This document shows, piece by piece, positions 2,658 through 22,996 of a stretch of DNA of 32,000 nt. Source of the DNA: Candidatus Pelagibacter sp. HTCC7211 (lineage in GTDB: Bacteria; Pseudomonadota; Alphaproteobacteria; Pelagibacterales; Pelagibacteraceae); NCBI RefSeq assembly GCF_000155895.1, contig NZ_DS995298.1, forward strand, positions 1,170,001 through 1,202,000, in the 5' to 3' direction. Positions within the stretch are counted from its first letter, which is position 1, and the number at the start of each line of letters is the position of its first letter. Under the pieces are notes generated by a model. The model saw nothing but the letters and a program-made list of their open reading frames with translations, searched no databases and was not told where the DNA came from. A program made the position numbers and the translations under genes.

Positions 2658-2676
2658 AAGATTGATAAATAATATT

Positions 2677-3048: not shown

Positions 3049-3056
3049 TAAATTAT

Positions 3057-5462: not shown

Positions 5463-5463
5463 A

Positions 5464-6504: not shown

Positions 6505-6515
6505 AATTTATCCTC

Positions 6516-7709
6516 TCATTTAGTTAAGTTAGTTGCAACCCACTTATGAAACATCAAAGTAGGAGTATCCATTACTGGGGAAAAATTTCCTCCATTATAA
6601 GCAGGGGAACTTCGACCCTTTTGCATTCCTTCTATTGCAGCAACATCTTCACTCATAACTTCTTGCCAAAATGCAAAATTTTTTTTTCTTATTTCTTTAT
6701 ATTCATCACTTGAAGCACTTTCATCTCCAACGTAATACATTTCAAAATGTTCTCTTGTATTGTTATTTGACAATGGTTCTAACCAAAATGCATAAAAATG
6801 ATCAACATGTATTCCAAGCATAACATTTGGAAATAGAGAAACATATTCTGAATTTTGATAAAGATCATTGGGCCAATTTGGAAATATTGAAAGTTTTTTA
6901 TTACCATCAAACTGTTGACTATATTTATTACTGCCTTGTCCTGAAAAAGTTTCTGCAAGATCTTCTATATGATAATGGTCTTTTAAATTTGAAACTCTAT
7001 TTAATTCTGGATGAACCCAGGGTAAGTGATAGCTTTCACAATAATTTTCAATTGCTAATTTCCAATTACTTTTTACTTCCATATTAAAATAACCAAAATC
7101 TCTAGCATGTCTTATTAACTTTTGATCCTCTCTTGATATAAACTTTGACCATTGTTTTTCTAAAGGATCGATACTTTGCTCAAAATCTTTTTTGTTTTTA
7201 TTGACATTAATGAATATTAAATCCATCCATACATGTGTTGAAATTTCTTTAAGATTGCTTTTTGATTTAATAAAACCTTCTGTCTCATGTATATTCATTC
7301 CGCCAACGTGAGGTGTGGCTATTAATTCACCATTAAAATTATATGACCATGAATGATATGGGCATCTTATAGTGTTCTTTATTTTGCATTCTTCTTTTAC
7401 AAGTATCATGCCTCTATGACTGCAAACATTATGAAATACTCTAATCTTATTATTTTTATCCCGTAAAATTAACAGTGGAATTCCCATTAAATTAAATGGT
7501 TTTGCATCGCCCACTTCGGGTACTGAACTGGAAACACCCACAACTATCCAGTTATTGAAAAAAACTTTCTCTCTTTCTATTTTAAAATATTCATCACTTA
7601 AATAACATTCATTAGGAAGACCATTTGCTTCATTAATTGATTTTTTTGTAGCTTCGATTTTATCTAGATCGACAATTCTTGATAATACATCTAAATTTTG
7701 TGACTTCAT
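6516..7709 (-). CDS. Rieske [2Fe-2S] non-haem iron oxygenase, alpha/catalytic subunit (substrate unknown; quaternary-amine oxygenase suspected from context)
   Basis: Rieske motif CSHRG...CPYHSW. Mononuclear iron motif NYCESYHLPWVH (HxxxxH). First gene of the co-directional array. Confidence 0.85.
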   Translation of the reverse strand: MKSQNLDVLSRIVDLDKIEATKKSINEANGLPNECYLSDEYFKIEREKVFFNNWIVVGVSSSVPEVGDAKPFNLMGIPLLILRDKNNKIRVFHNVCSHRGMILVKEECKIKNTIRCPYHSWSYNFNGELIATPHVGGMNIHETEGFIKSKSNLKEISTHVWMDLIFINVNKNKKDFEQSIDPLEKQWSKFISREDQKLIRHARDFGYFNMEVKSNWKLAIENYCESYHLPWVHPELNRVSNLKDHYHIEDLAETFSGQGSNKYSQQFDGNKKLSIFPNWPNDLYQNSEYVSLFPNVMLGIHVDHFYAFWLEPLSNNNTREHFEMYYVGDESASSDEYKEIRKKNFAFWQEVMSEDVAAIEGMQKGRSSPAYNGGNFSPVMDTPTLMFHKWVATNLTK

Positions 7710-7801
7710 TAACCTCCTTTTCTATTTAATTTAGTTTTACTTAAATTTAGAAAATTGGGTTTTTCTTACGATTCTCTGATGATTATTTGTTGAAATACAG
7801 G

Positions 7802-7835
7802 TTGACAATTCAAGCTGTATGAAAATCCATATACA
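7802..7835 (+). promoter_or_regulatory. Candidate promoter for the metF-like/GcvT-family pair (perfect -35 hexamer only)
   Basis: Perfect TTGACA at 7802-7807. Only poor -10 candidates (CATATA/ATATAC) lie 19-21 nt downstream. Confidence 0.25.
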
Positions 7836-7863
7836 AATTCTGGACCAATCCAAAACATAAAAA

Positions 7864-7890
7864 ATCGTACCATAAAATGGGCAAAATCAA
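7864..7890 (-). promoter_or_regulatory. Candidate sigma70-type promoter for the Rieske-bhmt-dmgdh array (extended -10)
   Basis: The minus strand reads TTGATT-N15-TACGAT, with TGG immediately 5' of TACGAT giving an extended -10 of the form TGnTAcgAT. This would leave a leader of about 145 nt. The spacer is short, the genome is AT-rich, and it overlaps a 35-codon ORF, so the call is weak. Confidence 0.25.
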
Positions 7891-7960
7891 AATAAAATTC
7901 TATCTACAAGTGGTTCTTTAAGGTAGCTGAATTTCTTTGACAGCATTTTCAAATAAGATA

Positions 7961-8704
7961 ATGATCGAGAAAAAAATGAATTTTTCACTAGAAATTGGTC
8001 CTAAAACTGACCTTGAAACGTTACCTCCGGTTAAGGATGTTTACGTCACAATGCTACCTGGTGGAGACTATAAAGAGACTTCAGATCAATCTATTGAACT
8101 TGTAAAAAAAGGTTTTAATCCTGTGCCTCATTTTCCCGCAAGATCAATTGAAAACGATTCTGAGCTAAAAGATTACGTTTCAAGATGTAAAGACGGTGGA
8201 GTAAAACAAGCATTAATAATTGGTGGTGGTAGAGAACCAATGGGAAAATTTGATAGTTCATTTCAACTTTTAGAAACAGGTTATTTTGAAAATATGAAAA
8301 TAGGAATTGCTGGGCATCCCGAGGGAAGTCCTGACATATCCGATACCGATTTAGACAAAGCTATGATGGATAAAAAGCCTTATGCTGATTATATAGTAAC
8401 TCAGTGGTTATTAGACCCTCAGCCTATCATAGATTTTATTTCTAAACAAAGCGTACCAGTACATGTTGGAATTACTGGACCTCTAAAAATATCAAGCTTA
8501 ATAAAGTTTGCTAATATTGTTGGAGCAAAAAATTCCTTAAATTTTCTTAAATCTAATTTTAGTAAGGCGTTAGATTTATTGAAACCTAAAGACCCTAATG
8601 ATTTAATTGGGAAAGTTAAATCGCATACTGATAACTTCCACATTTATACATTCGGCGGCTTGAAGGAAACAAACAAGTGGTTGAAGGAGAATAGTTATGT
8701 CTAA
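7961..8704 (+). CDS. metF: Methylenetetrahydrofolate reductase family protein (MetF-like)
   Basis: By-eye matches to MetF blocks: FSLEIGPK, VYVTMLPGG, PHFPAR, ALIIGGG, IAGHPEGSPD, YIVTQWLLDP, VHVGITGP, FHIYTFGG. The track start at 7937 is a TTG. In-frame ATGs at 7961 and 7976 are more likely, so the start is uncertain by up to 39 nt. Confidence 0.75.
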   Translation: MIEKKMNFSLEIGPKTDLETLPPVKDVYVTMLPGGDYKETSDQSIELVKKGFNPVPHFPARSIENDSELKDYVSRCKDGGVKQALIIGGGREPMGKFDSSFQLLETGYFENMKIGIAGHPEGSPDISDTDLDKAMMDKKPYADYIVTQWLLDPQPIIDFISKQSVPVHVGITGPLKISSLIKFANIVGAKNSLNFLKSNFSKALDLLKPKDPNDLIGKVKSHTDNFHIYTFGGLKETNKWLKENSYV

Positions 8705-10055
8705 TGAATTTGACTATACTAAACTAAAACATGTTACTTCAGTTGATCAATCAGATCGTGCAGTACCATATAATTTAAGACAAAGTGGGCCAACTAAAGT
8801 TGAAATGCTTATCTCAACAAGGGTAAGAAAATCACCTTATTGGCATTTATCAATGCAGGCAGGTTGTTGGAGAGCAACTGTTTACAATCGTATTTATCAC
8901 CCAAGAGGATATGTAAAACCAGAAGATGGTGGAGCAATGGTTGAGTATGATGCAATTGTAAATCACGTTACTATGTGGAACGTTGCTGTTGAAAGACAAA
9001 TAAGAGTTAAAGGTCCGGATGCAGAAAAATTTACAGACTATGTAATAACGAGAGATGCAACAAAAATTTCTCCGATGAGAGCAAGATATGTGATTTTGTG
9101 TAATGCTTATGGAGGAGTATTAAATGATCCAATCCTACTTAGAATTGCTGAAGATGAATTTTGGTTTTCATTATCAGACTCTGATATTGGTATGTACCTT
9201 CAAGGTGTAAATGCTGATGGAAGATTTGATTGTACAATTGAGGAAATTGATGTCAGTCCTGTGCAGATACAAGGACCAAAATCAAAAGCTTTAATGAAAG
9301 ACCTTTGTGGAGATCAAGTTGATTTTGATAATATGCCTTTCTACGGCTTAGCGGAAGTAAAAGTTGGTGGAAGAAGTTGTATAATTTCTCAATCTGGTTT
9401 CTCTGGAGAAGCTGGATATGAAATTTATCTAAGAGACTCGACTTTATACGCTGAGGATATGTGGAATGCTGTTCTTGAAGCAGGTAAAAAACATAGCCTA
9501 ATGGTTATTGCTCCTGCTCACCATAGAAGAATTCAAGCTGGAATTCTTTCATGGGGTCAAGATATGGATCAACAACACAATCCTTTTCAGTGTAACTTAG
9601 GTTATCAAGTTTCTTTATCTGGAAAAGGTGAATGGTCTAAAAAAGGTGACTATGTCGGTAAAGCTGCATTAGAAAAAATGGGTGCTGAACTTAAAGATGG
9701 CAAAAAACCTTATAAGCTTCAATTAGTTGGACTTGAATTAGGTGGAAAACCTATTGAAGAGTACGCTCCTGATTTTTGGCTAGTATCACCAGAGAGTGGT
9801 GGAGATCCTGTTGGATTTATAACTTCTCCTTGGTATCACCCAGAAAAAAAACAAAACATAGCAATGGGATATGTGCCGTTTGATGGAACATTAAATGCAA
9901 ATGGTTTTCCAAAAGGTAAGGTTGGAACTAAATTTAAAGTTCACCTGCCTGAAAAATACTCTGACACACCAGGAACTCCTGTTGATGCAGTTGTAGTAGA
10001 TATTCCATTTAAAGAGTCTTTCAACGCAAATACTAGAGAAGTTGTAAAAGGCTAA
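8697..10055 (+). CDS. GcvT-family THF-dependent aminomethyltransferase/demethylase (LigM/DesA/DmdA-like)
   Basis: FSGEAGYEIY GcvT signature and a VKGPDA motif. The 452-aa length and long N-terminal extension resemble aromatic O-demethylases LigM/DesA more than my recollection of DmdA (about 370 aa). It overlaps the metF-like stop by 8 nt. Confidence 0.75.
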   Translation: MSNEFDYTKLKHVTSVDQSDRAVPYNLRQSGPTKVEMLISTRVRKSPYWHLSMQAGCWRATVYNRIYHPRGYVKPEDGGAMVEYDAIVNHVTMWNVAVERQIRVKGPDAEKFTDYVITRDATKISPMRARYVILCNAYGGVLNDPILLRIAEDEFWFSLSDSDIGMYLQGVNADGRFDCTIEEIDVSPVQIQGPKSKALMKDLCGDQVDFDNMPFYGLAEVKVGGRSCIISQSGFSGEAGYEIYLRDSTLYAEDMWNAVLEAGKKHSLMVIAPAHHRRIQAGILSWGQDMDQQHNPFQCNLGYQVSLSGKGEWSKKGDYVGKAALEKMGAELKDGKKPYKLQLVGLELGGKPIEEYAPDFWLVSPESGGDPVGFITSPWYHPEKKQNIAMGYVPFDGTLNANGFPKGKVGTKFKVHLPEKYSDTPGTPVDAVVVDIPFKESFNANTREVVKG

Positions 10056-10064
10056 ATTTATTTT

Positions 10065-10096
10065 GGGGGAGCAAATTAAAGCTCCCCCATTTCTTC
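10065..10096 (+). terminator. Rho-independent terminator-type hairpin
   Basis: GGGGGAGC (10065-10072), 8-nt loop, GCTCCCCC (10081-10088), then the T-rich ATTTCTTC. It starts 10 nt after the GcvT-family stop codon and is the only GC-rich hairpin I found in the window. Confidence 0.75.
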
Positions 10097-10097
10097 A

Positions 10098-10199
10098 ATG
10101 ACAAAGGGTTTTTTGATAGTAATTTGCATTATCATTGCGATTGCTTTAATAGTATTCCCATTATTAGTTTCATATAAAGCACAAAAGAATAAAAAATAA
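10098..10199 (+). CDS. 33-aa single-pass membrane mini-protein (below the ORF-track cutoff)
   Basis: My translation: MTKGFLIVICIIIAIALIVFPLLVSYKAQKNKK, a hydrophobic helix with a basic C-terminal tail. Its TAA overlaps the ATG of the next gene (TAATG at 10197-10201). Confidence 0.45.
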   Translation: MTKGFLIVICIIIAIALIVFPLLVSYKAQKNKK

Positions 10200-10744
10200 T
10201 GTTTGCCGAATTTTTAAGTATAGTTTTTAAATCTATAAAATTAGATAAATCTTTATATTCAGATAATAAAAATTTTGGTGAAGCTTCTATTTATTTTGCT
10301 GGGATAATAATGATTTTAGATGGGATCGCGGGTGCTGTTGCTGCTAACACAGTAATTAAAACAGCAGTTGCTATGTCTGGACTTACATCAATTTTAACTT
10401 GGTTAGTTTGGGCAATCTTTATTTATGTGATTGGTGTTAAACTTTTTCCAGACAAAAAAGCAAAGGTTCCTTTTAAAAAAGTTTTAACAGCAGTTGGGTT
10501 TGCTCATGCACCTGGTTTACTTAGATTTTTCGCAGTAACACCCAATATGATGATACCGATTATTTTTCTGACACAATTTTGGATTTTTGCAGGATTAATT
10601 ATTTCTACAAAGCAAGTATTGGGCTTAAAATCTAACATAAAATCTTTTGGTATAGTTTTTTTATCGTTTTTAATTATAGCATTCTTATCAATTTCTTTTG
10701 TAATGAGCAGAATGAATATGTTGCCTGTTAGCCAGATTAGCTAG
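10199..10744 (+). CDS. Yip1-domain-like polytopic membrane protein
   Basis: 181 aa with about five hydrophobic segments. The layout resembles bacterial Yip1/DUF1282-type membrane proteins. No catalytic motifs seen. Confidence 0.5.
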   Translation: MFAEFLSIVFKSIKLDKSLYSDNKNFGEASIYFAGIIMILDGIAGAVAANTVIKTAVAMSGLTSILTWLVWAIFIYVIGVKLFPDKKAKVPFKKVLTAVGFAHAPGLLRFFAVTPNMMIPIIFLTQFWIFAGLIISTKQVLGLKSNIKSFGIVFLSFLIIAFLSISFVMSRMNMLPVSQIS

Positions 10745-10908
10745 ATTGGAAAAATAGTCTTAGATACCCTACAAGACGAACAAAGCTTATAACTAGTTAA
10801 AATTAAATTTTGAGACACACTTTCATCTTCTTTTTTGCATTCTTCACAAACATTATCTAGTTCTTTGATAATTTCAGAATTATTGCTTTTGTCTGATTCA
10901 TCAGTCAT
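10741..10908 (-). CDS. 55-aa acidic mini-protein with a CxxC...CxxC (zinc-ribbon-like) motif
   Basis: MTDESDKSNNSEIIKELDNVCEECKKEDESVSQNLILTSYKLCSSCRVSKTIFPI. I trimmed the start to the ATG at 10908, which overlaps the upstream gene's stop by 8 nt (ATGACTGA). The longer track ORF (to 10953) would overlap that gene by 53 nt. Confidence 0.5.
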   Translation of the reverse strand: MTDESDKSNNSEIIKELDNVCEECKKEDESVSQNLILTSYKLCSSCRVSKTIFPI

Positions 10909-11509
10909 TATCTGTAAGGCCAGCTCCTGCTCCACTCTGTTTAAGACTATCACTTTCTTCTACAAATGTATTTTCAGCTAATTTGTATAAACTATTCCAA
11001 TCTGAGTCTGTAAAGTTGTCTTTGTTATCTAAAAGTTTTACCTCTAAATTATTTGAATGTTTACTGAAGTCCTTATTAAATCCATTCGAAAAAATATTTA
11101 CATTTAAGTTAAGTAAAATTTCATTTTGATCAAATTTAACATATATTTTTTTTCCACTTACTTCAGATGCTCTGCTTAAAAATGACAAAAAAATTATTGG
11201 ATACGCAATCTTTTTAAAGTGTATCGTGTCAAAATTCTCTATTGCTTTAATTTGATCTAAAAAACTAACACCAAGTGTAATTGGACAGAAAGCTTCTTGA
11301 GCAATATTTTTCTCACTGATTGAATTTAAATTTTCAAATTTTTTTATTTCTCTTTCTTTGTAATACTGATTTAAATTTTTTATTCCTGCTAATCCAAATA
11401 ACTCTAATAATCTTATAGACTTTCCAACTTCCTCAGAAACTCCCCAAGAAAAACCTACTGCCCTACTAGCTCTTTTAACTGCAGTTTCAATTTCACTTAA
11501 AGATCTCAT
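10901..11509 (-). CDS. Hypothetical 202-aa protein (from memory resembles ~200-aa DUF3726-type alphaproteobacterial proteins; unverified)
   Basis: Intact ORF 2 nt after the upstream stop. N-terminus SLSEIETAVKRASRAVGFSWGVSEEVGKSIRLLELFGLAG; Gly/Ala-rich acidic tail SGAGAGLTDND. No catalytic motif recognised. Confidence 0.6.
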   Translation of the reverse strand: MRSLSEIETAVKRASRAVGFSWGVSEEVGKSIRLLELFGLAGIKNLNQYYKEREIKKFENLNSISEKNIAQEAFCPITLGVSFLDQIKAIENFDTIHFKKIAYPIIFLSFLSRASEVSGKKIYVKFDQNEILLNLNVNIFSNGFNKDFSKHSNNLEVKLLDNKDNFTDSDWNSLYKLAENTFVEESDSLKQSGAGAGLTDND

Positions 11510-11511
11510 TA

Positions 11512-13179
11512 TTAATTGTTAGCTTTATAAACCCATTGCTCGTCATAGTTTTTTAATTCATTTGGTAGTGGCGCACCTTGGAACATACAAATTCTTAGCC
11601 ATTTATCTGATCTAGGGTCAAATTTTAACGCACCAAAAAAAGATAATTTAAGTCTAAGCATATCAATAGGGACAATACTTTTACCAATTGTATTGTCTTG
11701 AATCTCAGAATATGGAAATTTTTCAATTATAAAAGCTCTTCTAACAACATGTCTTAAATCTGAGTTCGATGATAAAAATTGAGCAATTGTTGTGTCATTT
11801 TTTAAAGAAAGTAATTGCTCATAAAGTTTTTTTATATCCCTTGCTATAGCTAGAGGTTGTTCTAATTCAGATCCATGTTCTTCAAACCTGTCAGCCATCC
11901 TAGGCTCTTCTTTGTTTTTTGATATAAACCAGAAATTTTGATTATTTTCTTTTTGATCAAAATTTATATCCAAAATATTTGGATATCTAGTTTTAATAAT
12001 TTCCATTAATTCTTGCGTTGTTCGATTGGTTGGAATATTAAAATACTTTTCTTCTTCAGAGCTCATATTGCTAACTAAAGGCTCGGTAATATCGTTATAA
12101 GGCTCCATCATTATAGAGACTACGTATTCTATACATTCCTCGCATGAATTCTGCTCTAACCACAAATATATCTGATTAAATGGAAACTCAGACTGAAAAT
12201 CAAAATCATTTTCAACATGATTGATCAATTTTTTAACATCTCTTAATAATAATCTAATTTTATTCTGTTGATATTCACTGTCTGTATTCCAGCTAGTAAT
12301 ATTTTTTAATGATTTTTTTAAACAATCTTTAAAAAGTTGACTGTCTTGATTTTTAACAATTTCAATTTCTCTAATCTTTTTTAATGCTATTTCTCTACTT
12401 AAAATCCAATTATTTAACAATGTTGGGTGATTAACTATAAAAGGAGCCATACCAAGACCAGTAGAGTTTCCAATACCTAAATTTTTACAAATTTGATTAT
12501 CTAGTTTTACTGCTGTTTTGGGATTTATATTATGAGCAACATGGTTTACCTGATCAAACGTAAATTGTCTTACTAAATAAACTAACATCATTTCTAATCT
12601 AAAAGGACCGTTAATTTCCTCTCTATTTTTAATCCGAAATCTATCTGCTAGACCAAATTTTCCAGATCCATAAACTGCTGTAGTTCTGTATAAATAACCA
12701 ACTTTTGACAATAAATCTAAATCAGGTTGTTTACCCTCACTTAAATTTTTCACAACATGATTAAAAACTCTAATAGACTTATTTGCTCTTGATAAAGTTA
12801 ACTCTTTAAATGTAAGTCTACCTATTTCTTGTTTAGGGACCTCGTTTTTTAATCTTTTAATATCATCTTTACTGGGTACACCGTCATAAAGTGTAAAAGC
12901 AGCATCCCACTTAGTAGCTATTACTCTATCGGATCTTTCTTCATCTTCAATCTTATTGGCAAAACAAACTAATGAATAAACTCTATCTTTTTTTTTAAAT
13001 GAATATATTGCCTCTCCATAACCATCTTTATCTAAGTTAAATAAATCTCTATTATAATCCCAATCTTTGAATTCACTTAAAAAACTTCTTAAAAAAGATA
13101 GTTTTGATTGGTGAAATGATCCTAATCTAGATAATTTCATTATTGTGTTTGGGTCTCTTAATTCAACTTTCATAATCAA
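11512..13179 (-). CDS. Hypothetical 555-aa protein, no family recognised
   Basis: Long intact ORF in a stop-codon-rich AT genome. Its ATG overlaps the M19 gene stop (ATGA, 13176-13179). No P-loop, Rossmann or metal motif that I can name. Conserved-looking blocks: RTTAVYGSGKFGLADRF and NLGIGNSTGLGMAPFIVNHP. Confidence 0.65.
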   Translation of the reverse strand: MIMKVELRDPNTIMKLSRLGSFHQSKLSFLRSFLSEFKDWDYNRDLFNLDKDGYGEAIYSFKKKDRVYSLVCFANKIEDEERSDRVIATKWDAAFTLYDGVPSKDDIKRLKNEVPKQEIGRLTFKELTLSRANKSIRVFNHVVKNLSEGKQPDLDLLSKVGYLYRTTAVYGSGKFGLADRFRIKNREEINGPFRLEMMLVYLVRQFTFDQVNHVAHNINPKTAVKLDNQICKNLGIGNSTGLGMAPFIVNHPTLLNNWILSREIALKKIREIEIVKNQDSQLFKDCLKKSLKNITSWNTDSEYQQNKIRLLLRDVKKLINHVENDFDFQSEFPFNQIYLWLEQNSCEECIEYVVSIMMEPYNDITEPLVSNMSSEEEKYFNIPTNRTTQELMEIIKTRYPNILDINFDQKENNQNFWFISKNKEEPRMADRFEEHGSELEQPLAIARDIKKLYEQLLSLKNDTTIAQFLSSNSDLRHVVRRAFIIEKFPYSEIQDNTIGKSIVPIDMLRLKLSFFGALKFDPRSDKWLRICMFQGAPLPNELKNYDEQWVYKANN

Positions 13180-14141
13180 ATTGATTTATAAAAATTGTAC
13201 CAATTATTTCCAAGTATTCCTTGTGTCTCACTGTCTGAAAACCCTGCTTTTTTAAGACCATTTTCAATATTTTTAAATCCTCTAGCATCCTCAAACCATT
13301 CTGGTTGTTTTGGAAAACCAGGTTTGTTTTTAGATCCTTCTCCATAATTTTTGCTTTTAGACCAAGTGCCATTTCTCATCCATTCAACAACTGTATCGGC
13401 TTGATTTAAACAAAGGTCTGATCCAATACCAATATTTTTTATTTCCATAATTTCTGCTGTTCTTGCAACCATCTCGCAAAAACTCTCAATTGTGCAATTA
13501 GTATTATTTTTTAAATGATGTGGATATAAAGACAAACCTAGCATACCTCCACTTTCACTTAATGTTTTTAACAGTTCATTAGATTTATTTCTTTTTGCAG
13601 CGTGCCAAAAAGATGGATTAGCATGAGTAATAGCTATTGGTTTTTCACTTAATTCTATTGCATCAAATGTACTTTTCTCTGCTGAATGAGACATATCAAT
13701 AACAATGCCAACTCTATTCATTTCTTTAATAACTTCACGACCAAAATTAGTTACACCACTATCTATTTTTTCATAACAGCCAGTTGCGAGTAATGACTGA
13801 TTATTATAAGTCAGTTGCATAAATCTACATCCCAACGAATGTACTTTTTCTACTAAACTAATATCATCTTCAATGGGTGAACAATTTTGAAACCCAAAAA
13901 AAATTGCTGTTTTTTTTTCAACGTTTGCTTTTTCGATATCTTTAAAATCATTGCCTAAAAAAATTAAATCTGAGTTTTCTGAAAAGAGTTTTTCCCATTT
14001 TTTAGTTTCACCTACTAACTCATCAAAATCTTCATGATAAACAATAGTTACGTGAACTGCGTCTAGATTTGCCTCTCTATTGAATTCAAAGATCTCTCTA
14101 GACCAATTACAATATTGTAGATTATCTATTTTAAAATTCAT
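13176..14141 (-). CDS. M19 (renal/membrane dipeptidase) fold amidohydrolase homolog with a non-canonical metal site
   Basis: Aligns by eye to DPEP1 blocks: VIDMSHS (His198 block), IAITHANP (His219 block), IGIGSDL (Asp288 block), MQLTYNNQS (LTLTHSCN block). However, IDNLQY replaces IDGHND and GFQNC replaces GVEGG. Confidence 0.75.
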   Translation of the reverse strand: MNFKIDNLQYCNWSREIFEFNREANLDAVHVTIVYHEDFDELVGETKKWEKLFSENSDLIFLGNDFKDIEKANVEKKTAIFFGFQNCSPIEDDISLVEKVHSLGCRFMQLTYNNQSLLATGCYEKIDSGVTNFGREVIKEMNRVGIVIDMSHSAEKSTFDAIELSEKPIAITHANPSFWHAAKRNKSNELLKTLSESGGMLGLSLYPHHLKNNTNCTIESFCEMVARTAEIMEIKNIGIGSDLCLNQADTVVEWMRNGTWSKSKNYGEGSKNKPGFPKQPEWFEDARGFKNIENGLKKAGFSDSETQGILGNNWYNFYKSI

Positions 14142-14233
14142 AAAGTACCAATTCTAATCAATATGTTTTTAAATACTATTAATTTTATTGAAATTTTGAG
14201 TTTATTTTGAAATAAAGATTTTGGTAAAATTTC

Positions 14234-14725
14234 ATGAAAAAAAATAAATCATTAAAAGTTTCAATAGTAATGGGTAGTCAGTCTGACTATAAAATTATGC
14301 ATCTTGCAGAAAAAACACTAAAAAAAATAGGTGTACCTTTTGAGATTAAAATCATATCAGCGCACAGAACTCCAAAAAGAATGTACGATTATGCTCTAGC
14401 AACTAAAAGAAATAATATTGGTGTAATTATAGCTGGAGCAGGTGGTTCTGCTCATTTACCAGGAATGATATCTGCATTAACATCTTTACCAGTTCTAGGA
14501 GTACCAATTGAAAGTAAAAAATTAAAAGGTTTAGATAGCTTATTATCTATAGTTCAAATGCCTAAAGGTATCCCAGTTGGTACACTTGCCATCGGTGAAG
14601 ATGGCGCAATAAATGCTGCGTTACTTGCAGCTTCAATTATTGGAAATAATAATCAATCAATAAAAAATAAATTAAATAATTGGAGAGCAGCTCAAACAAA
14701 ATCTGTAAAAAAAAAACCTAAATAA
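14234..14725 (+). CDS. purE: N5-carboxyaminoimidazole ribonucleotide mutase
   Basis: GSQSD, SAHRTP and AGGSAHLPGM class I PurE motifs. 163 aa, followed by purK. Confidence 0.95.
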   Translation: MKKNKSLKVSIVMGSQSDYKIMHLAEKTLKKIGVPFEIKIISAHRTPKRMYDYALATKRNNIGVIIAGAGGSAHLPGMISALTSLPVLGVPIESKKLKGLDSLLSIVQMPKGIPVGTLAIGEDGAINAALLAASIIGNNNQSIKNKLNNWRAAQTKSVKKKPK

Positions 14726-14727
14726 AA

Positions 14728-15774
14728 ATGTCCGATATTACACTTGGAATAATTGGTGGTGGTCAACTTGGAAGTATGATGGCCATAGCTGCTAAAAAAT
14801 TAAATATTACAACTATAATTTTTTGTGATGATGTTGACGCACCAGCTCAAAACTTTTGTAATAATTTTATTTGTGGAAATTATGATGACAAAGAAAAAAT
14901 CGCTGAATTTGTAAAACTTGTAGACATAGTTACTTTTGAATTTGAAAATATTCCCTATGAAACTCTAAATGAAATTAATAAATTAAAACCAGTTTTACCA
15001 AAACCTGCTGTTAATAGACTTATTCAACACAGGTTAGCTGAAAAAGATTTTATCAACAAATTAAATATAAGAACAACTAGGTACGTCTCTATTGAAAAAA
15101 AATCTGATTTAGATTCTCTTGAAGATTTTTTACCTGGAATTTTAAAAACTACTACACTTGGATATGATGGAAAAGGTCAACATCCTATTCATTCTATTGA
15201 TGAGCTAAATTCACTTAATATAGATTTTTCTAAAGGATATATTCTTGAGAAATTAGTAAAATTAAAAAAAGAAATTTCAATAATAATAACCAGATTTGAA
15301 AATCAAAAATATGAGATTTATGAACCTATTGAAAATACTCATCAAGATCAAATTTTAAGAAACTCAAAAATACCTGCTGATATTGATAATAAAATTTTTG
15401 AGCAATCAAAAGATTGGGCTATGACAATTTCTGAGGAGCTAAAATATGTAGGCACATTATGTGTAGAATTTTTTATCGACAGAAATGATAATCTTTATGT
15501 TAACGAAATTGCGCCAAGAGTTCATAACTCAGGTCATTTAACAATTAATGCTTATAATATTAGCCAATTTGAAAATCATGTAAGAGCAGTATGTGGACTG
15601 GAACAAATTCCATTAAAAAAGATTTCTAACGCTAAAATGATAAATCTTATTGGAGATGAAATTTCAAAGTACAGAAAAATATCAAAATTGAATGATAATG
15701 AATTTTTCTTTGATTATCTAAAAAAAGAGATAAAAGACAAAAGAAAAATGGGACATCTAACTACGTTAATTTAA
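14728..15774 (+). CDS. purK: N5-carboxyaminoimidazole ribonucleotide synthase (ATP-grasp)
   Basis: GIIGGGQLG N-terminus and the EIAPRVHNSGH PurK signature. 2 nt after purE. Confidence 0.92.
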   Translation: MSDITLGIIGGGQLGSMMAIAAKKLNITTIIFCDDVDAPAQNFCNNFICGNYDDKEKIAEFVKLVDIVTFEFENIPYETLNEINKLKPVLPKPAVNRLIQHRLAEKDFINKLNIRTTRYVSIEKKSDLDSLEDFLPGILKTTTLGYDGKGQHPIHSIDELNSLNIDFSKGYILEKLVKLKKEISIIITRFENQKYEIYEPIENTHQDQILRNSKIPADIDNKIFEQSKDWAMTISEELKYVGTLCVEFFIDRNDNLYVNEIAPRVHNSGHLTINAYNISQFENHVRAVCGLEQIPLKKISNAKMINLIGDEISKYRKISKLNDNEFFFDYLKKEIKDKRKMGHLTTLI

Positions 15775-16245
15775 ATGTTAAAATCTATTGAGGGAAATTT
15801 TGAACATCCTGAAGTTAATGAACTCTTAATTAAACACTTTATTGAACTAAGAGCTGCATCACCAGAGGGTAGTGCTCATGTTTTAGACATTCCTGGTTTA
15901 AAAGTTCCTTCTATCAAATTTTGGAGTTTATGGGAAAATCAAAAATTAATGGGATGTGGGGCCTTAAAATTTTTAGATAAAGGGCACGGTGAATTTAAAT
16001 CCATAAGAATACATGACGATTTTAGAAAAAAAGGTAACGGTATTAACGTAATTAATCATTTAATAACTGAAGCAGAAAAATTAAACATATCAAGATTAAG
16101 TATAGAAACTGGGGCTGGAGATTTTTTTATACCTGCTAGAAAACTATTTAAACAATGTGGATTCGAACCTTGTAAACCCTTTGCTCACTACAAAGAAGAT
16201 ATAAATTCTGTTTATTTAACTAAGTTAATTAACAACATTTCATAA
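15775..16245 (+). CDS. GNAT-family N-acetyltransferase
   Basis: 156 aa. A RKKGNG motif-A-like acetyl-CoA pyrophosphate loop sits in the expected position. The ATG directly abuts the purK stop (TAAATG). Confidence 0.7.
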   Translation: MLKSIEGNFEHPEVNELLIKHFIELRAASPEGSAHVLDIPGLKVPSIKFWSLWENQKLMGCGALKFLDKGHGEFKSIRIHDDFRKKGNGINVINHLITEAEKLNISRLSIETGAGDFFIPARKLFKQCGFEPCKPFAHYKEDINSVYLTKLINNIS

Positions 16246-16359
16246 AATTAAGTTTATTTATCTAATAATATGTTGACAAAACCCTAGAAAATCTAAACAA
16301 AGCCAGAATTACTTAATTTTAAGTAATAAATTAATACAACGAAAAGTAAGAAGATAAAT

Positions 16360-16566
16360 ATGAGTCTACAAGGAAAAGTAAAATGGTTCAATCCAACCAA
16401 AGGTTTTGGTTTTATTGAAAGAGAAGATAAAGAAAAAGATGTGTTTGTACATGTTTCAGCAGTAAGAGATGCTGGTATGAACGGTTTAGATGAGGGTCAA
16501 GCTTTGACTTTCGATGTTGAAGATGGTCCAAAAGGTCCTTCAGCAGTTAACTTAAAAACTGCATAA
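16360..16566 (+). CDS. Cold-shock domain protein (CspA family)
   Basis: [15 protein letters not shown] (RNP1) and DVFVHVS (RNP2). 68 aa. Confidence 0.95.
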
Positions 16567-16578
16567 TTTCACACTTCC

Positions 16579-16635
16579 TATTGGCTGAAATATAAAATTA
16601 TTATCTATTAAATTAGATATTTATTTCAGCCAATA
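16579..16635 (+). terminator. Long AT-rich stem-loop 3' of csp (possible terminator or mRNA-stabilising element)
   Basis: Perfect 14-bp inverted repeat: TATTGGCTGAAATA (16579-16592) and TATTTCAGCCAATA (16622-16635). It encloses a nested palindrome, ATCTA-TTAAAT-TAGAT. There is no clear U-tract. Confidence 0.45.
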
Positions 16636-16684
16636 CATAAAAATAATTTTAACACAATTCCCAATTACAATTATTAATAGTACA

Positions 16685-17047
16685 ATGTGTATTATTAATA
16701 TGAGCAAAAGATTTATAAATAATTTAAATAACTTAGATTTTAAACCATTTGATAATTACGGTGAACCAGTCAAAGGTATGAGTTGGCATAAAATTAGTTA
16801 TGATAAAAAAAATGGTGGATTTGGAACTTACATTTTAAAAATGGAACCTGGTGCAAGAAGTTTGCCACATCAGCATCAAGGATTTGAGGAATTTTATATG
16901 ATAGATGGAGAATTAGAGGATGCTGACGGTAAAATTTTTAAGAAAGGTGATTTTGTAACTTTTGAACCTGGATCTACTCATAATTCGTTTACTAAAAATG
17001 GTTGCCTACTTATAGTTTTTATGAGAGGTATAAATAAACCAATCTAA
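16685..17047 (+). CDS. Metal-binding cupin (ChrR-C-terminal / Cupin_7-like)
   Basis: PHQHQGFEEFYMIDG fits cupin motif 1, HxH(x3)E(x6)G. EPGSTHNSF supplies the motif-2 His. The start may instead be the ATG at 16700. Confidence 0.7.
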   Translation: MCIINMSKRFINNLNNLDFKPFDNYGEPVKGMSWHKISYDKKNGGFGTYILKMEPGARSLPHQHQGFEEFYMIDGELEDADGKIFKKGDFVTFEPGSTHNSFTKNGCLLIVFMRGINKPI

Positions 17048-17067
17048 TAATAAATTACAAAATAGAT

Positions 17068-17814
17068 ATGATCGGAATTTTAGGTGGAATGGGTACTCAA
17101 GCAGGTCTTGATTTTTGCAATAAACTAGCGATTTTAAATAGAGGAAAGATAGATCAAGAATACCCATTATTTCTGCTTTACAATAAATCAAACATTCCAG
17201 GAAGACCAGAGTCTATTGGCATTCAAACTAGAAGTTTATCAAATAAATCTACAAACAAAGTCAGTAAAATTAAATACAATAAAGTTTTAAAAAGTTTACT
17301 TCGTGGATGTAAACTTTTAGAAAAAAATAAATGTAAATTTATTGTTATACCTTGTAACACAGCACATTATTGGTTTGATGATTTGCAAAAAAAAGTAAAT
17401 ATCTCAATTATTAATATGCCTAAAGAGGTTTTCAAATTCACAAAACAGAATTGTAAAAAAAATTCTAAAATTGGGCTATTGGCAACTGAAGGAACTTTAA
17501 ATACTGGTGTGTACCATAATTTTTTTAATAAAAATTATGATTTAGTCCAACCTTCACAAACACTTCAAAAAAAATCAGTAAATAAAGCAATTAAACTTGT
17601 TAAGATGGGGAACGTAAAAGCTGCAGCAAAAGCTATAAAACCAGCAATAAATTCTCTTTTAAAGATGAAATGTAAAAAGATAATATTAGGATGCACTGAA
17701 CTTCCAATTGCAATTTTTGCATTTAAATCTTTTGAAAATGTAAAATCTTCTAAAATCTTTTTAGATCCAAATTTGATCCTTGCAAATTCTGCGATGCATA
17801 AACATAGTAGATAA
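17068..17814 (+). CDS. Asp/Glu/hydantoin racemase family protein (aspartate racemase-like)
   Basis: GILGGMG N-terminus. Both catalytic cysteine motifs are present: IPCNTAHYW and LGCTELP. Confidence 0.8.
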   Translation: MIGILGGMGTQAGLDFCNKLAILNRGKIDQEYPLFLLYNKSNIPGRPESIGIQTRSLSNKSTNKVSKIKYNKVLKSLLRGCKLLEKNKCKFIVIPCNTAHYWFDDLQKKVNISIINMPKEVFKFTKQNCKKNSKIGLLATEGTLNTGVYHNFFNKNYDLVQPSQTLQKKSVNKAIKLVKMGNVKAAAKAIKPAINSLLKMKCKKIILGCTELPIAIFAFKSFENVKSSKIFLDPNLILANSAMHKHSR

Positions 17815-19146: not shown

Positions 19147-19734
19147 TTATAAAGATTTATAGCCAAATTCCAAAGAAGCATCTGTGATAGAATGATAAAA
19201 AGACTCTCCAAAACTTCGAAATGTAAATAATCTTAACTTATTAGGTTTATCATCTAACATATCAACCGTAAATGCTATTCCGTTATAGGTAGAGTTTATT
19301 GAATTATTTTTTTCTAAAGTATTAAAATTAAAAGGACATCCTTTCTTTAAAACTTCTATGGCTTCTTCTCCTTCTAATTCAATTATAGCTCTTGAATGGG
19401 ATAAATCTGTTATAGCAAAATCAGTGTCTTTAAATGTCTCTAGAACTATTTTTAGTAAATCTTTTTTAGTAGATATTAAAAACCAATTTTTTGGGCCATT
19501 CCATAAAATTCTTGTTTCGCTGTTATTTGTTACATTTAATGGTTCATTTTTAAAATTCAAACCATCAACATTAATGCTTTCAACAGAAATTGAAGAATTT
19601 TTATACTGAACTATTTGAACAATTAATAAATCTTTTATCTCCGATATTTGTAAAAGTTCGTTATCATTTTTATTTTCATGGTCTCCAAACTGACCAACTG
19701 AATGAACATTTGCTAAAGCTGATATCGTGCTCAT
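19147..19734 (-). CDS. soxG: Heterotetrameric sarcosine oxidase gamma subunit (or the N-methylglutamate dehydrogenase equivalent)
   Basis: The size (195 aa) and blocks [28 protein letters not shown] and [10 protein letters not shown] match SoxG. It overlaps soxA by ATGA. Confidence 0.8.
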
Positions 19735-22727: not shown

Positions 22728-22996
22728 AAAGAAATTTCCTCATTAGCTTTTAATGTCCTAAAAATTTCATGAGTGGCTGTATCTCTTTCAACTTTTATCC
22801 ACTGTCTGCATCCTGATATATGTTGCCATAATTCCCAATGTTTTCCTCTCAAGCTTTTTCTATTATAAACAAAGTTATCCCAGTCTTGATCTGATATTTC
22901 TTTATTTAAATCCGGTCTTTTTACACTTGCATCACCTCCATAAGAAAACTCATTTTGTGATCTCATTCCGCAATGTGGGCACTTAATATAAAGCAT
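22724..22996 (-). CDS. soxD: Heterotetrameric sarcosine oxidase delta subunit
   Basis: 90 aa. N-terminal CPHCG motif plus downstream Cys/His, typical of the SoxD zinc site. Located between the soxB and soxA homologs. Confidence 0.85.
   Translation of the reverse strand: MLYIKCPHCGMRSQNEFSYGGDASVKRPDLNKEISDQDWDNFVYNRKSLRGKHWELWQHISGCRQWIKVERDTATHEIFRTLKANEEISL

What the first reader, a model, noticed from the sequence alone, without database searches (positions are those of the whole stretch)
13176..14141. M19 'dipeptidase' homolog appears to have lost three of five canonical zinc ligands
In human renal dipeptidase (DPEP1) and characterised bacterial M19 enzymes, the binuclear zinc site uses His20/Asp22 (IDGHND), bridging Glu125 (GVEGG), His198 and His219.

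Aligning by eye:
- Here IDNLQY gives His to Leu and Asp to Tyr.
- GFQNC gives Glu to Gln.
- The His198 block (VIDMSHS), His219 block (IAITHANP) and Asp288 block (IGIGSDL) are retained.

That pattern would remove the alpha-metal site and the bridging carboxylate. It suggests a mononuclear or mechanistically different amidohydrolase, or a non-catalytic scaffold, rather than a standard dipeptidase. An automated annotation as 'membrane dipeptidase' would probably be wrong in detail.
Basis: partly seen in the sequence, partly recalled or inferred. Interest (0 to 1): 0.65.

Follow-up and report, generated by a model that had tools for sequence, protein, structure and literature searches.

The report
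Homarine-pathway hydrolase with degenerate zinc site
This SAR11 gene, routinely labelled "membrane dipeptidase", has lost most of the zinc-binding residues of that enzyme family and is in fact HomC, a required but biochemically uncharacterised enzyme of the recently described bacterial pathway that breaks down the abundant marine metabolite homarine.

Summary
The 321-aa ORF at 13176..14141 (minus strand) is a clear Peptidase_M19 homologue. Leu8, Tyr10 and Gln85 replace His20, Asp22 and Glu125 of human renal dipeptidase. His198, His219, Arg230 and Asp288 are kept.

This is not a one-off. The pattern holds in 79 of 79 orthologues and in every full-length member of a large M19 sub-clade. That sub-clade includes the unpublished crystal structure 2i5g.

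Gene context identifies the protein. It is the first gene of a tight homC-homB-homA unit. Synteny across 80 genomes matches the homarine catabolic operon homABCDER(T) of Ferrer-Gonzalez et al. (Nat Microbiol 2026). There, a homC mutant of Ruegeria pomeroyi cannot grow on homarine.

That paper calls HomC only a "predicted peptidase" and does not discuss its active site.

My inferred mechanism is that HomC is a one-metal or metal-free amidohydrolase. It would remove the N-formyl group from a ring-opened N-methylformamido dehydroglutamate intermediate (C7H9NO5 to C6H9NO4 plus formate).

The main rival is a non-hydrolytic, PvdM-like binding partner.

The biological role is therefore already published. 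The active-site divergence and the proposed reaction are new and testable.

The parts
13176..14141 (-). homC: M19-fold amidohydrolase-superfamily protein, 321 aa, with a degenerate metal site. Leu8, Tyr10, Gln85 and Tyr112 replace His20, Asp22, Glu125 and His152 of DPEP1. His152, His173, Arg184 and Asp242 are retained.
   Evidence: - ORF.
- Pfam PF01244, E 5.8e-70.
- Best solved relative 2i5g, E 2e-54 over residues 4-318.
- Residue correspondences.
- Conservation in 79 orthologues.
- AF2 (beta/alpha)8 model, pLDDT 68.8.
- Foldseek TM 0.77 to 2i5g and about 0.70 to canonical M19 structures.
11512..13173 (-). homB: 553-aa protein with no Pfam, NCBIfam or PDB relative. Its ATG lies 2 nt after the homC stop codon.
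   Evidence: - ORF. Junction read (...TGA tt ATG...).
- No family.
- Found within 8 kb of the homC orthologue in 72 of 80 genome loci, usually immediately downstream.
- Size and position match homB (~1,700 nt) of PMC13236597.
10901..11509 (-). homA: 202-aa DUF3726 protein. It starts 2 nt after the homB stop codon.
   Evidence: - Pfam DUF3726, E 1.7e-19.
- Follows homB in at least 51 of 80 loci.
- Annotated 'DUF3726 domain-containing protein' in the same position in Phaeobacter and Aminobacter.
- Size matches homA (~700 nt) of PMC13236597.
14142..14233 (.). 92-bp AT-rich intergenic region between homC and the divergent purE. It is presumably the promoter region of homCBA.
   Evidence: Sequence read. 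ORF map. No promoter analysis was done, and Rfam found no RNA family anywhere in the window.

Best explanation
**Identity.** The ORF is the SAR11 orthologue of HomC, one of the core catabolic genes of the homarine (N-methylpicolinate) degradation operon. Here it sits in a minimal, tightly packed homC-homB-homA unit.

**Active site.** HomC has the (beta/alpha)8 fold of the M19 'renal dipeptidase' branch of the amidohydrolase superfamily. It belongs to a large sub-clade that has replaced four key residues:
- both alpha-metal ligands (His to Leu, Asp to Tyr)
- the bridging Glu (to Gln)
- the oxyanion-stabilising His152 (to Tyr)

The sub-clade strictly keeps four others:
- the two beta-site histidines
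- the catalytic Asp288
- Arg230, which binds the substrate carboxylate

HomC is therefore not a binuclear zinc dipeptidase.

**Proposed mechanism (inferred).**
1. HomA/HomB open the pyridinium ring oxidatively between C5 and C6. This gives 2-(N-methylformamido)-5-oxopent-2-enoate.
2. The aldehyde dehydrogenase HomD oxidises it to 2-(N-methylformamido)pent-2-enedioate (C7H9NO5).
3. HomC hydrolyses the N-formyl amide of this N-acyl-dehydroamino acid. It uses at most one metal (His152, His173, possibly Gln85) or none, with Asp242 as general base and Arg184 holding the alpha-carboxylate.
4. The products are formate and N-methyl-dehydroglutamate, equivalent to 2-(methylimino)glutarate (C6H9NO4).
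5. That product is reduced to N-methylglutamate. Where present, the Ldh_2-family HomE would do this.

**Shown versus inferred.**
- Shown: the substitutions, their clade-wide conservation, the fold, the synteny with the hom operon, and (from the literature) the homC growth phenotype and the metabolite formulas.
- Inferred: the metal content and the specific reaction.
For: **Substitutions and retained residues**
-.

**Fold and placement of the residues**
- They sit at the C-terminal ends of strands beta-1, 3, 4, 5, 6 and 8.
- Residues invariant in 79 orthologues are enriched at strand C-termini: 29 of 64 positions against 56 of 257 elsewhere, odds ratio 3.0, p = 2e-4. They are depleted at strand N-termini.

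**Synteny**
- LysR | ALDH - M19-like - [BCCT] - 555-aa protein - DUF3726 - [Ldh_2] recurs in Roseobacters, SAR116, Vibrio, Halomonas, Marinomonas and others.
- This matches homR | homD-homC-[homT]-homB-homA-[homE] as described for R. pomeroyi SPO3188-3192 and Cobetia (PMC13236597).

**Genetics from the literature**
- homB, homC, homD and homR mutants lose growth on homarine.

**Chemistry**
- The paper reports homarine-derived features C7H9NO5, C6H9NO4 and C6H9NO3, plus N-methylglutamate C6H11NO4, with one ring carbon lost.
- My scheme accounts for each formula. This is my own inference.
- DPEP1 is classically a dehydropeptidase. Its inhibitor cilastatin is a 2-acylamino-2-alkenoate bound by Arg230, Tyr255 and Asp288 (for those residues; the chemistry is my own knowledge). 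The proposed substrate belongs to the same chemical class but lacks the free alpha-amino group. That would make the alpha-site dispensable.

**Supporting context**
- HomE is an Ldh_2-family protein. From my own knowledge, this family includes the DpkA N-methyl-amino-acid dehydrogenases and imine reductases, which fits step 5.
- RidA genes lie next to some clusters, which fits imine or enamine intermediates.
Against: - No biochemical data exist for HomC or any clade member. Metal content is unknown, and I could not inspect the 2i5g coordinates.
- The intermediates in the hom paper are formulas only. Their structures and order are unknown, and the paper proposes no formyl or hydrolysis step.
- This window has no homD, homE, homR or homT. 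In this genome the pathway would need an aldehyde dehydrogenase and a reductase encoded elsewhere, or it runs differently.
- Orthology to the experimentally tested SPO3190 rests on synteny and description. I did not hold the R. pomeroyi sequence, so there is no direct alignment.
- Related sub-clades sit beside flavoproteins: DgcA, and an FAD oxidoreductase. One is fused to a DUF5943/V4R ligand-binding protein. This would also fit a non-hydrolytic accessory role like that of PvdM.
- The AF2 model is only moderate (pLDDT 68.8). The loop 112-126, which carries Tyr112 and Glu124, is below 50.
Confidence: 0.6

Rival explanations
1. HomC is a non-hydrolytic binding or hand-over protein. It would use the old dipeptidase pocket (Arg184, Asp242 and the two histidines) to hold homarine or a labile ring-opened intermediate. 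It would pass this to HomA/HomB or HomD, as PvdM does for the tyrosinase PvdP.
For: - PvdM is an M19 homologue with an inactivated zinc site. It is essential yet non-catalytic, and its relatives are typically linked to FAD-dependent oxidoreductases (PMC9305348).
- Relatives of HomC sit next to flavoproteins: dgcA in Ralstonia and an FAD-binding oxidoreductase in Azospirillum.
- One sub-clade member is naturally fused to a DUF5943/V4R small-molecule-binding protein.
- The HomC-HomB-HomA trio travels as a unit even where the downstream enzymes differ: S. meliloti pSymB and this window.
Against: - PvdM keeps only one of the five ligands, and that histidine is dispensable.
- HomC keeps His198, His219, Asp288 and Arg230 in 79 of 79 orthologues.
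- The broader clade keeps His152 and His173 in all 27 aligned members down to about 30% identity, with Asp242 and Arg184 nearly invariant. It also has new invariant polar residues: Gln85, Gln109, Tyr112 and Asn142, with Glu124 nearly invariant.
- A hydrolytic step that removes one carbon and frees the secondary amine is chemically required between homarine and N-methylglutamate. No other hydrolase is part of the core operon.
Confidence: 0.2
2. HomC is a hydrolase, but for a different amide. One option is ring-opening of a lactam such as N-methylpyroglutamate (C6H9NO3 + H2O = N-methylglutamate). Another is deamidation of N-methylglutamine to N-methylglutamate.
For: - C6H9NO3 and N-methylglutamine both accumulate from homarine, and the mass balance fits.
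- From my own knowledge, M19 enzymes hydrolyse cyclic amides (carbapenems) as well as dipeptides.
- After the M19 structures, the next structural neighbours are LigI-type lactonases of the amidohydrolase superfamily (ranks 21 and 32).
Against: - From my own knowledge, uncatalysed 5-oxoproline opening is thermodynamically unfavourable and normally ATP-driven.
- N-methylglutamine carries a second nitrogen that homarine does not supply. It is therefore more likely a side product than an on-path intermediate.
- Neither option explains how ring carbon C6 is removed.
Confidence: 0.15
3. The by-eye alignment is wrong, and the protein is an ordinary binuclear zinc dipeptidase with its ligands offset by a few residues.
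For: The N-terminal HxD region is not covered by any HMM alignment. The register there is inferred from the motif, not computed.
Against: - There is no histidine before residue 30.
- Gln85 and Tyr112 are placed unambiguously under Glu125 and His152 in every alignment.
- The pattern is invariant in 79 orthologues.
- The gene is needed for homarine use, not peptide use.
Confidence: 0.02

Closest known systems
HomC of the homABCDER homarine catabolic operon (R. pomeroyi SPO3190, Cobetia sp. OBi1; Ferrer-Gonzalez et al., Nat Microbiol 2026, PMC13236597)
   Same: - Same gene neighbourhood: next to the ~1.7-kb homB and the ~0.7-kb homA.
- In other lineages, also next to the ALDH homD, the LysR homR, the BCCT homT and homE.
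- Same 'peptidase' prediction.
- The paper states that SAR11 carries the operon.
   Different: - This window holds only homC-homB-homA. homD, homE, homR and homT are absent within at least 10 kb on either side.
- The paper does not describe the loss of the zinc ligands and does not assign HomC a reaction.
Human renal dipeptidase DPEP1 (1itq) and Streptomyces Sco3058 (3id7), the canonical M19 enzymes
   Same: - Same (beta/alpha)8 fold, TM about 0.70.
- Pfam PF01244.
- His198, His219, Arg230 and Asp288 are conserved.
   Different: - His20, Asp22, Glu125 and His152 are replaced by Leu, Tyr, Gln and Tyr.
- About 18 residues are missing after strand beta-1.
- There is no signal peptide or membrane anchor.
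- The physiological role is homarine catabolism, not dipeptide hydrolysis.
2i5g, 'amidohydrolase from Pseudomonas aeruginosa' (structural genomics, 2006, no paper found). It is dgc-operon type, probably PA5396 given the matching length of 325 aa.
   Same: - Same sub-clade signature: IDGLxx, GFQN, Q(L/M)(T/C)YN, DLSH, RNK, GTD.
- Best sequence hit (E 2e-54) and best structural hit (TM 0.77).
   Different: - Only about 32-33% identical.
- Close relatives sit in glyA-M19-DUF5943/V4R-dgcA-dgcB clusters for dimethylglycine catabolism, with a different partner protein.
- Function unknown. P. putida PP_0308-9 show fitness phenotypes on choline, betaine and carnitine, 'role unknown'.
PvdM (3b40), the non-hydrolytic M19 homologue of pyoverdine maturation (PMC9305348)
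   Same: It is an M19 fold with an inactivated binuclear site. It is mis-annotated as a dipeptidase and is essential in a non-peptide pathway.
   Different: PvdM is periplasmic and membrane-anchored. It keeps only His219, and that residue is dispensable. HomC is cytoplasmic and keeps His198, His219, Asp288 and Arg230 invariantly.
Mononuclear and metal-free members of the amidohydrolase superfamily: E. coli NagA (Gln-x-Asn in place of HxH, single beta-site metal) and LigI lactonase (no metal). These are cited from my own knowledge, not tested here.
   Same: They are precedents for losing the strand-1 ligand pair, or the metal altogether, while keeping hydrolytic activity. The activity depends on the strand-5 and strand-6 histidines and the strand-8 aspartate.
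   Different: They belong to different sub-families with different substrates. LigI-like structures are only distant structural neighbours (TM about 0.49).

Membership tests
Peptidase M19 / renal dipeptidase (Pfam PF01244, amidohydrolase superfamily) | Significant match to the family profile and the (beta/alpha)8 fold | tested here: met
   PF01244 at 236 bits against a cut-off of 26. Foldseek TM 0.68-0.77 to 20 M19 chains.
Peptidase M19 / renal dipeptidase (catalytically canonical) | HxD pair at the end of strand 1 (His20, Asp22), the ligands of the alpha-zinc | tested here: not met
   The sequence reads IDNLQY. There is no His in residues 1-29. Leu is present in 76 of 79 orthologues and Tyr in 76 of 79. 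HxD is absent in all 90 clade representatives.
Peptidase M19 / renal dipeptidase (catalytically canonical) | Bridging Glu125 on strand 3 | tested here: not met
   Gln85 aligns to the Glu in every alignment. Gln is present in 79 of 79 orthologues.
Peptidase M19 / renal dipeptidase (catalytically canonical) | His152 (LTH motif), which polarises the scissile carbonyl | tested here: not met
   Tyr112 aligns to it. Tyr is present in 79 of 79 orthologues.
Peptidase M19 / renal dipeptidase (catalytically canonical) | Beta-zinc ligands His198 and His219, catalytic Asp288, carboxylate-binding Arg230 | tested here: met
   His152, His173, Asp242 and Arg184 align to them. All four are invariant.
Peptidase M19 / renal dipeptidase (catalytically canonical) | Two zinc ions per subunit and dipeptide hydrolysis | not testable with these tools
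   This needs ICP-MS and enzyme assays.
HomC of the homarine catabolic operon | M19-like gene adjacent to homB (~1.7 kb, no known domain) and homA (~0.7 kb) | tested here: met
   homC, homB and homA are contiguous with 2-nt spacers. The same trio occurs in 72 of 80 loci for homB and at least 51 of 80 for homA.
HomC of the homarine catabolic operon | Co-location with homD (aldehyde dehydrogenase) within 10 kb. This was the criterion used by the paper; homR, homE and homT are optional. | tested here: not met
   tblastn finds no homD, homR, homE or homT homologue in the 32-kb window. They are present in 39, 29, 24 and 19 of the 80 related loci respectively. An aldehyde dehydrogenase is present in 2 of the 13 SAR11 loci.
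HomC of the homarine catabolic operon | Sequence orthology to the genetically tested genes (SPO3190, the Cobetia gene) | tested here: inconclusive
   The ORF is 55-59% identical over its full length to the M19-like gene of LysR|ALDH-M19-555aa-DUF3726 clusters in Phaeobacter, Aminobacter and Vibrio. The R. pomeroyi and Cobetia sequences themselves were not available to me.
HomC of the homarine catabolic operon | Required for growth on homarine | not testable with these tools
   Shown for R. pomeroyi homC::Tn5 in PMC13236597, not for SAR11.
PvdM-type non-hydrolytic M19 proteins | Periplasmic and membrane-anchored, only His219 conserved, linked to TonB receptors | tested here: not met
   The protein starts directly at strand 1 (MNFKIDNLQY), with no N-terminal hydrophobic segment. 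Four canonical residues are kept. No TonB receptor is nearby.

The most novel reading that the evidence does not exclude
The whole 'Leu/x-Gln-Tyr' sub-clade of M19 proteins would be a previously unrecognised catalytic type within the amidohydrolase superfamily. The sub-clade includes HomC, the dgc-operon protein PA5396/2i5g, the S. meliloti pSymB trio member and the Azospirillum EutBC-linked member.

On this reading the proteins are one-metal or metal-free hydrolases. They work on N-formyl or N-alkyl amide (or imine/carbinolamine) products generated by partner amine- or N-heterocycle-oxidising enzymes. The sub-clade would then supply a missing hydrolytic step in several methylated-amine pathways (homarine, dimethylglycine and others), not only in homarine catabolism.
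Probability: 0.3. Interest if true: 0.65.

Novelty: new variant of a known kind. Interest (0 to 1): 0.5.

Why it matters
Homarine is one of the most abundant small nitrogen metabolites in the surface ocean. SAR11 is the most abundant bacterial group there. The genes for homarine catabolism were named only in 2026, and none of the enzymes has been characterised.

This analysis shows that HomC cannot work as the zinc dipeptidase its annotation implies. It also yields a concrete reaction: deformylation of an N-methylformamido-dehydroglutamate. That reaction explains the unidentified intermediates C7H9NO5 and C6H9NO4. It gives enzymologists a defined substrate, residues to mutate and a metal question to answer.

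The work also flags that thousands of 'dipeptidase' annotations are probably wrong in function. These occur in marine and soil Proteobacteria and include the unexplained first gene of the Pseudomonas dimethylglycine (dgc) operon.

The significance is limited in three ways. The biological role is already published. Degenerate M19 sites have a precedent in PvdM. The mechanism is inferred, not shown.

Tried and rejected
1. **First lead: PA5396/2i5g in the Pseudomonas dgc operon.** This is a real relative but a different sub-clade. It is about 33% identical, and its partner is a DUF5943/V4R protein, not HomB/HomA. It does not define this gene's function.

2. **Sulfonium substrate (DMSP or S-methylmethionine related).** I considered this because dmdABCD lie next to the cluster in Phaeobacter. 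I also considered hydroxyproline-betaine, ectoine, carnitine and trigonelline. All were dropped once the homarine paper matched the whole cluster.

3. **Structure of HomB.**
   - A third homologue search returned only SAR11 sequences.
   - The resulting AF2 model is unusable (pLDDT 51.9, pTM 0.29), so no fold search was run.
   - Sequence and profile searches of the PDB found nothing.

4. **The search for related loci with the 27-sequence alignment** failed because there was no conserved stretch. It worked with 8 sequences.

5. **First two homologous-protein searches** were saturated by SAR11 sequences: about 90% identical for HomC and above 95% for HomB. Diversity came from the representative search.

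6. **NCBIfam** has no model for HomA, HomB or HomC. It cannot separate sarcosine oxidase from N-methylglutamate dehydrogenase.

7. **Rfam** found nothing in the window.

8. **Papers not held.** The trigonelline-pathway paper (Perchat 2018) and the Sco3058 paper (Cummings 2010) could not be read. Statements about them are from memory.

9. **An apparent HomC-HomB fusion (P0317)** has truncated halves and is probably a frameshift or assembly artefact.

10. **My own ORF caller** produced antisense artefacts in high-GC loci (clusters 17 and 28). Counts were redone with tblastn.


Full report
**1. What is at the coordinates**

The window is about 30% G+C. Its proteins find their closest relatives in Candidatus Pelagibacter, that is SAR11.

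An ATG-started 321-aa ORF occupies 13176..14141 on the minus strand. It matches Pfam Peptidase_M19 (PF01244) with E 5.8e-70. The match begins only at profile position 38, so the N-terminal metal-ligand motif of the family is not aligned. No NCBIfam model matches.

**2. Checking the observation**

I ran HMMER alignments against all solved structures, with the single sequence and with a 27-sequence clade profile. They give these placements relative to human DPEP1:

| This ORF | DPEP1 residue | Role in DPEP1 | Status |
|---|---|---|---|
| Leu8 | His20 | alpha-zinc ligand | replaced (register from motif) |
| Tyr10 | Asp22 | alpha-zinc ligand | replaced (register from motif) |
| Gln85 | Glu125 | bridging carboxylate | replaced |
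| Tyr112 | His152 | polarises scissile carbonyl | replaced (not noted by reader) |
| His152 | His198 | beta-zinc ligand | kept |
| His173 | His219 | beta-zinc ligand | kept |
| Arg184 | Arg230 | binds substrate carboxylate | kept |
| Asp242 | Asp288 | catalytic base | kept |

- The Gln85 placement holds against Sco3058, DPEP1 and GliJ.
- The His20/Asp22 equivalence cannot be computed, because the canonical enzymes carry about 18 extra residues after strand 1.
- The sequence has no histidine before residue 30, so an HxD pair cannot be hiding a few residues away.
- In an AlphaFold2 model (pLDDT 68.8, pTM 0.73), the motif lies at the C-terminal end of strand beta-1 (residues 3-6). That is where the amidohydrolase superfamily places this ligand pair.
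- In the same model, Gln85, Tyr112, His152, His173 and Asp242 lie at or just after the ends of strands 3, 4, 5, 6 and 8.
- Foldseek places the model with 2i5g (TM 0.77) and then with twenty canonical M19 chains (TM about 0.70).

Three of five zinc ligands are replaced, and so is the catalytic His152.

**3. Is it a conserved state or a one-off?**

A search of 1.84 billion cluster representatives found 418 proteins at E below 1e-30. All 90 full-length sequences among the best 150 lack HxD. Nearly all have Gln, usually Gln-Asn, at the Glu position.

In a 27-member alignment spanning 29-50% identity to the query:
- Invariant: Asp6, Gln85, Gln109, Tyr112, Asn142, Asp149, Ser151, His152 and His173, among others.
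- Nearly invariant: Leu8, Asn86, Glu124, Arg184 and Asp242.

Among 79 orthologues taken from genomes:
- Leu8 is present in 76, Tyr10 in 76, Gln85 in 79 and Tyr112 in 79.
- His152, His173, Arg184 and Asp242 are each present in 79.

The 85 positions that are at least 97% conserved are enriched three-fold at strand C-termini (p = 2e-4). They are depleted at strand N-termini. This is the pattern of a maintained active or binding site, not of decay.

The best solved relative is 2i5g, 'amidohydrolase from Pseudomonas aeruginosa' (E 2e-54). It carries the same signature: IDGLII, GFQNA, QMCYN. Searches of the paper library for the entry code 2I5G and for PA5396 found no paper describing the structure.

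**4. Context**

The homC stop codon TGA is followed after 2 nt by the ATG of a 553-aa protein (11512..13173). That protein has no Pfam, NCBIfam or PDB relative. Two nt after its stop codon begins a 202-aa DUF3726 protein, 10901..11509.

I fetched 80 genome loci that encode relatives of the M19-like protein:
- The 555-aa protein lies within 8 kb in 72 of them, usually immediately downstream.
- DUF3726 follows it in at least 51.

Outside SAR11 the cluster is regularly arranged as:

LysR regulator (divergent) | aldehyde dehydrogenase - M19-like - [BCCT transporter] - 555-aa protein - DUF3726 - [Ldh_2 oxidoreductase]

A RidA gene is sometimes nearby. The taxa are SAR11, SAR116, many Roseobacters, Vibrio, Photobacterium, Halomonas, Marinomonas, Pseudoalteromonas, Aminobacter, Variovorax and Acidimicrobiales.

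**5. Identification**

Their operon homABCDER, with homT, consists of:
- a regulator
- a glycine-betaine-type transporter
- five catabolic genes of unclear function

In R. pomeroyi, SPO3188-3192 are:
- homA (~700 nt)
- homB (~1,700 nt)
- homC ('predicted to function as a peptidase')
- homD (aldehyde dehydrogenase)
- homR

homE is a variably present auxiliary gene found either beside homA or beside homD. This matches my synteny gene for gene, including the two alternative positions of the Ldh_2 gene.

Transposon mutants in homB, homC, homD and homR lose growth on homarine. The paper states that SAR11 retains the operon.

So the ORF is a HomC orthologue, with two caveats:
- I could not align it directly with SPO3190.
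- This window carries only homC-homB-homA. tblastn finds no homD, homE, homR or homT anywhere in the 32 kb, and 11 of the 13 SAR11 loci are like this.

**6. How it probably works**

The paper shows that homarine (C7H7NO2) is converted, with its N-methyl group intact, into N-methylglutamate (C6H11NO4). N-methylglutamate dehydrogenase then converts that to glutamate. The paper also reports unidentified homarine-derived features C7H9NO5, C6H9NO4 and C6H9NO3. It proposes no hydrolysis or formyl step and does not discuss the HomC active site.

One ring carbon must be lost and the N-C6 bond must be broken. From my own recollection, the trigonelline pathway cleaves the C5-C6 bond of the isomeric pyridinium and leaves an N-methylformamide. 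By analogy, I infer the following steps:

1. HomAB: homarine + O2 + 2[H] gives 2-(N-methylformamido)-5-oxopent-2-enoate (C7H9NO4).
2. HomD oxidises this to 2-(N-methylformamido)pent-2-enedioate (C7H9NO5, an observed formula).
3. HomC hydrolyses it to formate + N-methyl-dehydroglutamate, equivalent to 2-(methylimino)glutarate (C6H9NO4, an observed formula).
4. Reduction gives N-methylglutamate.
5. C6H9NO3 is either the deformylated aldehyde or N-methylpyroglutamate.

Several points fit this scheme:
- The proposed HomC substrate is an N-acyl-alpha,beta-dehydroamino acid. That is the class for which DPEP1 ('dehydropeptidase I') is known and which cilastatin mimics. Arg230 and Asp288 bind cilastatin, and both are invariant here.
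- A formyl group has no alpha-amino group. This would make the alpha-metal/Asp22 half of the site dispensable.
- HomE belongs to the Ldh_2 family. From my own knowledge, that family includes imine-reducing N-methyl-amino-acid dehydrogenases.
- RidA genes next to some clusters fit imine or enamine chemistry.

Whether a single metal remains at His152/His173 (with Gln85) or none at all is open. The PvdM paper cites older work that E125Q is the one Glu125 substitution that does not inactivate human renal dipeptidase. A Gln there need not abolish metal binding.

My confidence by level:

| Claim | Confidence |
|---|---|
| Non-canonical site | about 0.95 |
| HomC orthology | about 0.85-0.9 |
| Hydrolase acting on a ring-opened intermediate | about 0.6 |
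| The specific deformylation | about 0.35 |

**7. Rivals**

*Non-hydrolytic partner.* The strongest rival is a role like that of PvdM. PvdM is an M19 homologue with an inactivated zinc site. It is essential for pyoverdine maturation without catalysing anything, and its relatives are linked to FAD oxidoreductases.

Relatives of HomC do sit beside flavoproteins, and one is fused to a ligand-binding protein:
- glyA-M19-DUF5943/V4R-dgcA-dgcB in Ralstonia. [quoted passage not shown]
- TRAP transporter-M19-FAD oxidoreductase-EutBC in Azospirillum.
- A natural M19+DUF5943+V4R fusion.

Against this rival:
- PvdM keeps only one, dispensable, ligand, whereas HomC keeps four catalytic residues invariantly.
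- The pathway needs a hydrolase, and HomC is the only candidate in the core operon.

*Different amide.* A second rival is hydrolysis of N-methylpyroglutamate or N-methylglutamine. The mass balance fits, but it does not explain the carbon loss.

*Misaligned ordinary dipeptidase.* This is excluded by the sequence.

**8. Relation to what is known, and novelty**

- The gene's biological role is already published (2026).
- The fold family is old.
- Degenerate M19 sites have a precedent in PvdM.
- A crystal structure of the variant has existed since 2006.

Three things are not in the literature I could search:
- The recognition that HomC and its large clade lack the alpha-site, the bridging Glu and His152 while conserving the rest.
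- The resulting implication for the 'peptidase' label.
- A reaction that explains the unassigned intermediates.

I rate it a new variant of a known kind, of moderate interest.

**9. What failed**

- The HomB structure could not be modelled. Only shallow SAR11 alignments were accepted, giving pLDDT 51.9.
- PDB profile searches for HomB were empty.
- The key enzymology papers on Sco3058 and trigonelline were not held.
- Supplementary tables of the homarine paper were not held.

Noticed in passing
window 19147..24253 (-): A four-gene 'sarcosine oxidase' set: beta 22997..24253, delta 22724..22996, alpha 19731..22727, gamma 19147..19734. The homarine paper stresses that such sets are often mis-annotated N-methylglutamate dehydrogenase (mgdABCD), the next step after the hom genes. 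NCBIfam only places them in the generic SoxB and SoxA 'family' models, so sarcosine oxidase versus NMGDH is undecided.
   Followed up: partly
window 7937..10055 (+): An overlapping gene pair is conserved next to the hom genes in SAR11 loci. It comprises a weak MTHFR-like protein (255 aa, below the Pfam cut-off) and a 452-aa GCV_T protein. The latter is closest to DMSP demethylase DmdA but well below its cut-off (232 against 410 bits). It may be a tetrahydrofolate-dependent demethylase for an unknown methylated substrate.
   Followed up: no
window 10199..10744 (+): A 181-aa ORF with no Pfam match is conserved (66-90% identity) in the same position beside homA in 11 SAR11 loci.
   Followed up: no
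window 1..8000 and 24381..29422: The window is a methylated-amine and one-carbon island. It contains:
- a DddP-like M24 protein (341 against 600 bits, so not an equivalog)
- dimethylglycine-dehydrogenase-like DAO+GCV_T
- homocysteine S-methyltransferase (BHMT-like)
- a GbcA-like Rieske oxygenase (far below cut-off)
- formate-tetrahydrofolate ligase
- a class-I glutamine amidotransferase-like protein
- an iron-containing alcohol dehydrogenase
- trimethylamine monooxygenase Tmm (735 against 675 bits, passes)

   Followed up: partly
L082 (S. meliloti pSymB) 7223..17659: A paralogous trio in a different order: a HomB-like protein (25% identity), a 242-aa hypothetical protein and an M19-like protein (41% identity, same Gln/Tyr signature). 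It sits with an IclR regulator, an ABC transporter, a class-III aminotransferase and succinate-semialdehyde dehydrogenase. This may be a related ring-opening pathway for another N-heterocycle that ends in succinate semialdehyde.
   Followed up: partly
L084 (Ralstonia) 6687..13687; protein P0273: The dgc-type M19-like protein is followed by a ~177-aa '4-vinyl reductase' (V4R) protein and then dgcA and dgcB. P0273 is a natural fusion of M19-like + DUF5943 + V4R. This suggests the two proteins act as a complex in dimethylglycine catabolism. P. putida PP_0308-9 have unexplained fitness phenotypes on choline, betaine and carnitine.
   Followed up: partly
L085 (Azospirillum brasilense p3) 5073..12494: Another member of the same M19 sub-clade lies between a TRAP transporter and an FAD-binding oxidoreductase plus ethanolamine ammonia-lyase EutBC. 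This hints at a catabolic route for an N-substituted ethanolamine carboxylate.
   Followed up: no
L072 12106..12855 (HomA orthologue); window 10901..11509: DUF3726 (HomA) shows a weak similarity to the N-terminal third of the Ldh_2 family (E 0.005). Ldh_2 is the family of the neighbouring HomE. The homarine paper instead reports FAD-binding motifs in HomA.
   Followed up: no
L081 (Phaeobacter inhibens pPGA1_262) 11864..17304: In Phaeobacter the hom cluster lies directly next to the DMSP demethylation genes: dmdA, an AMP-binding protein, dmdD and an acyl-CoA dehydrogenase. Two phytoplankton-osmolyte pathways are therefore grouped on one plasmid.
   Followed up: no
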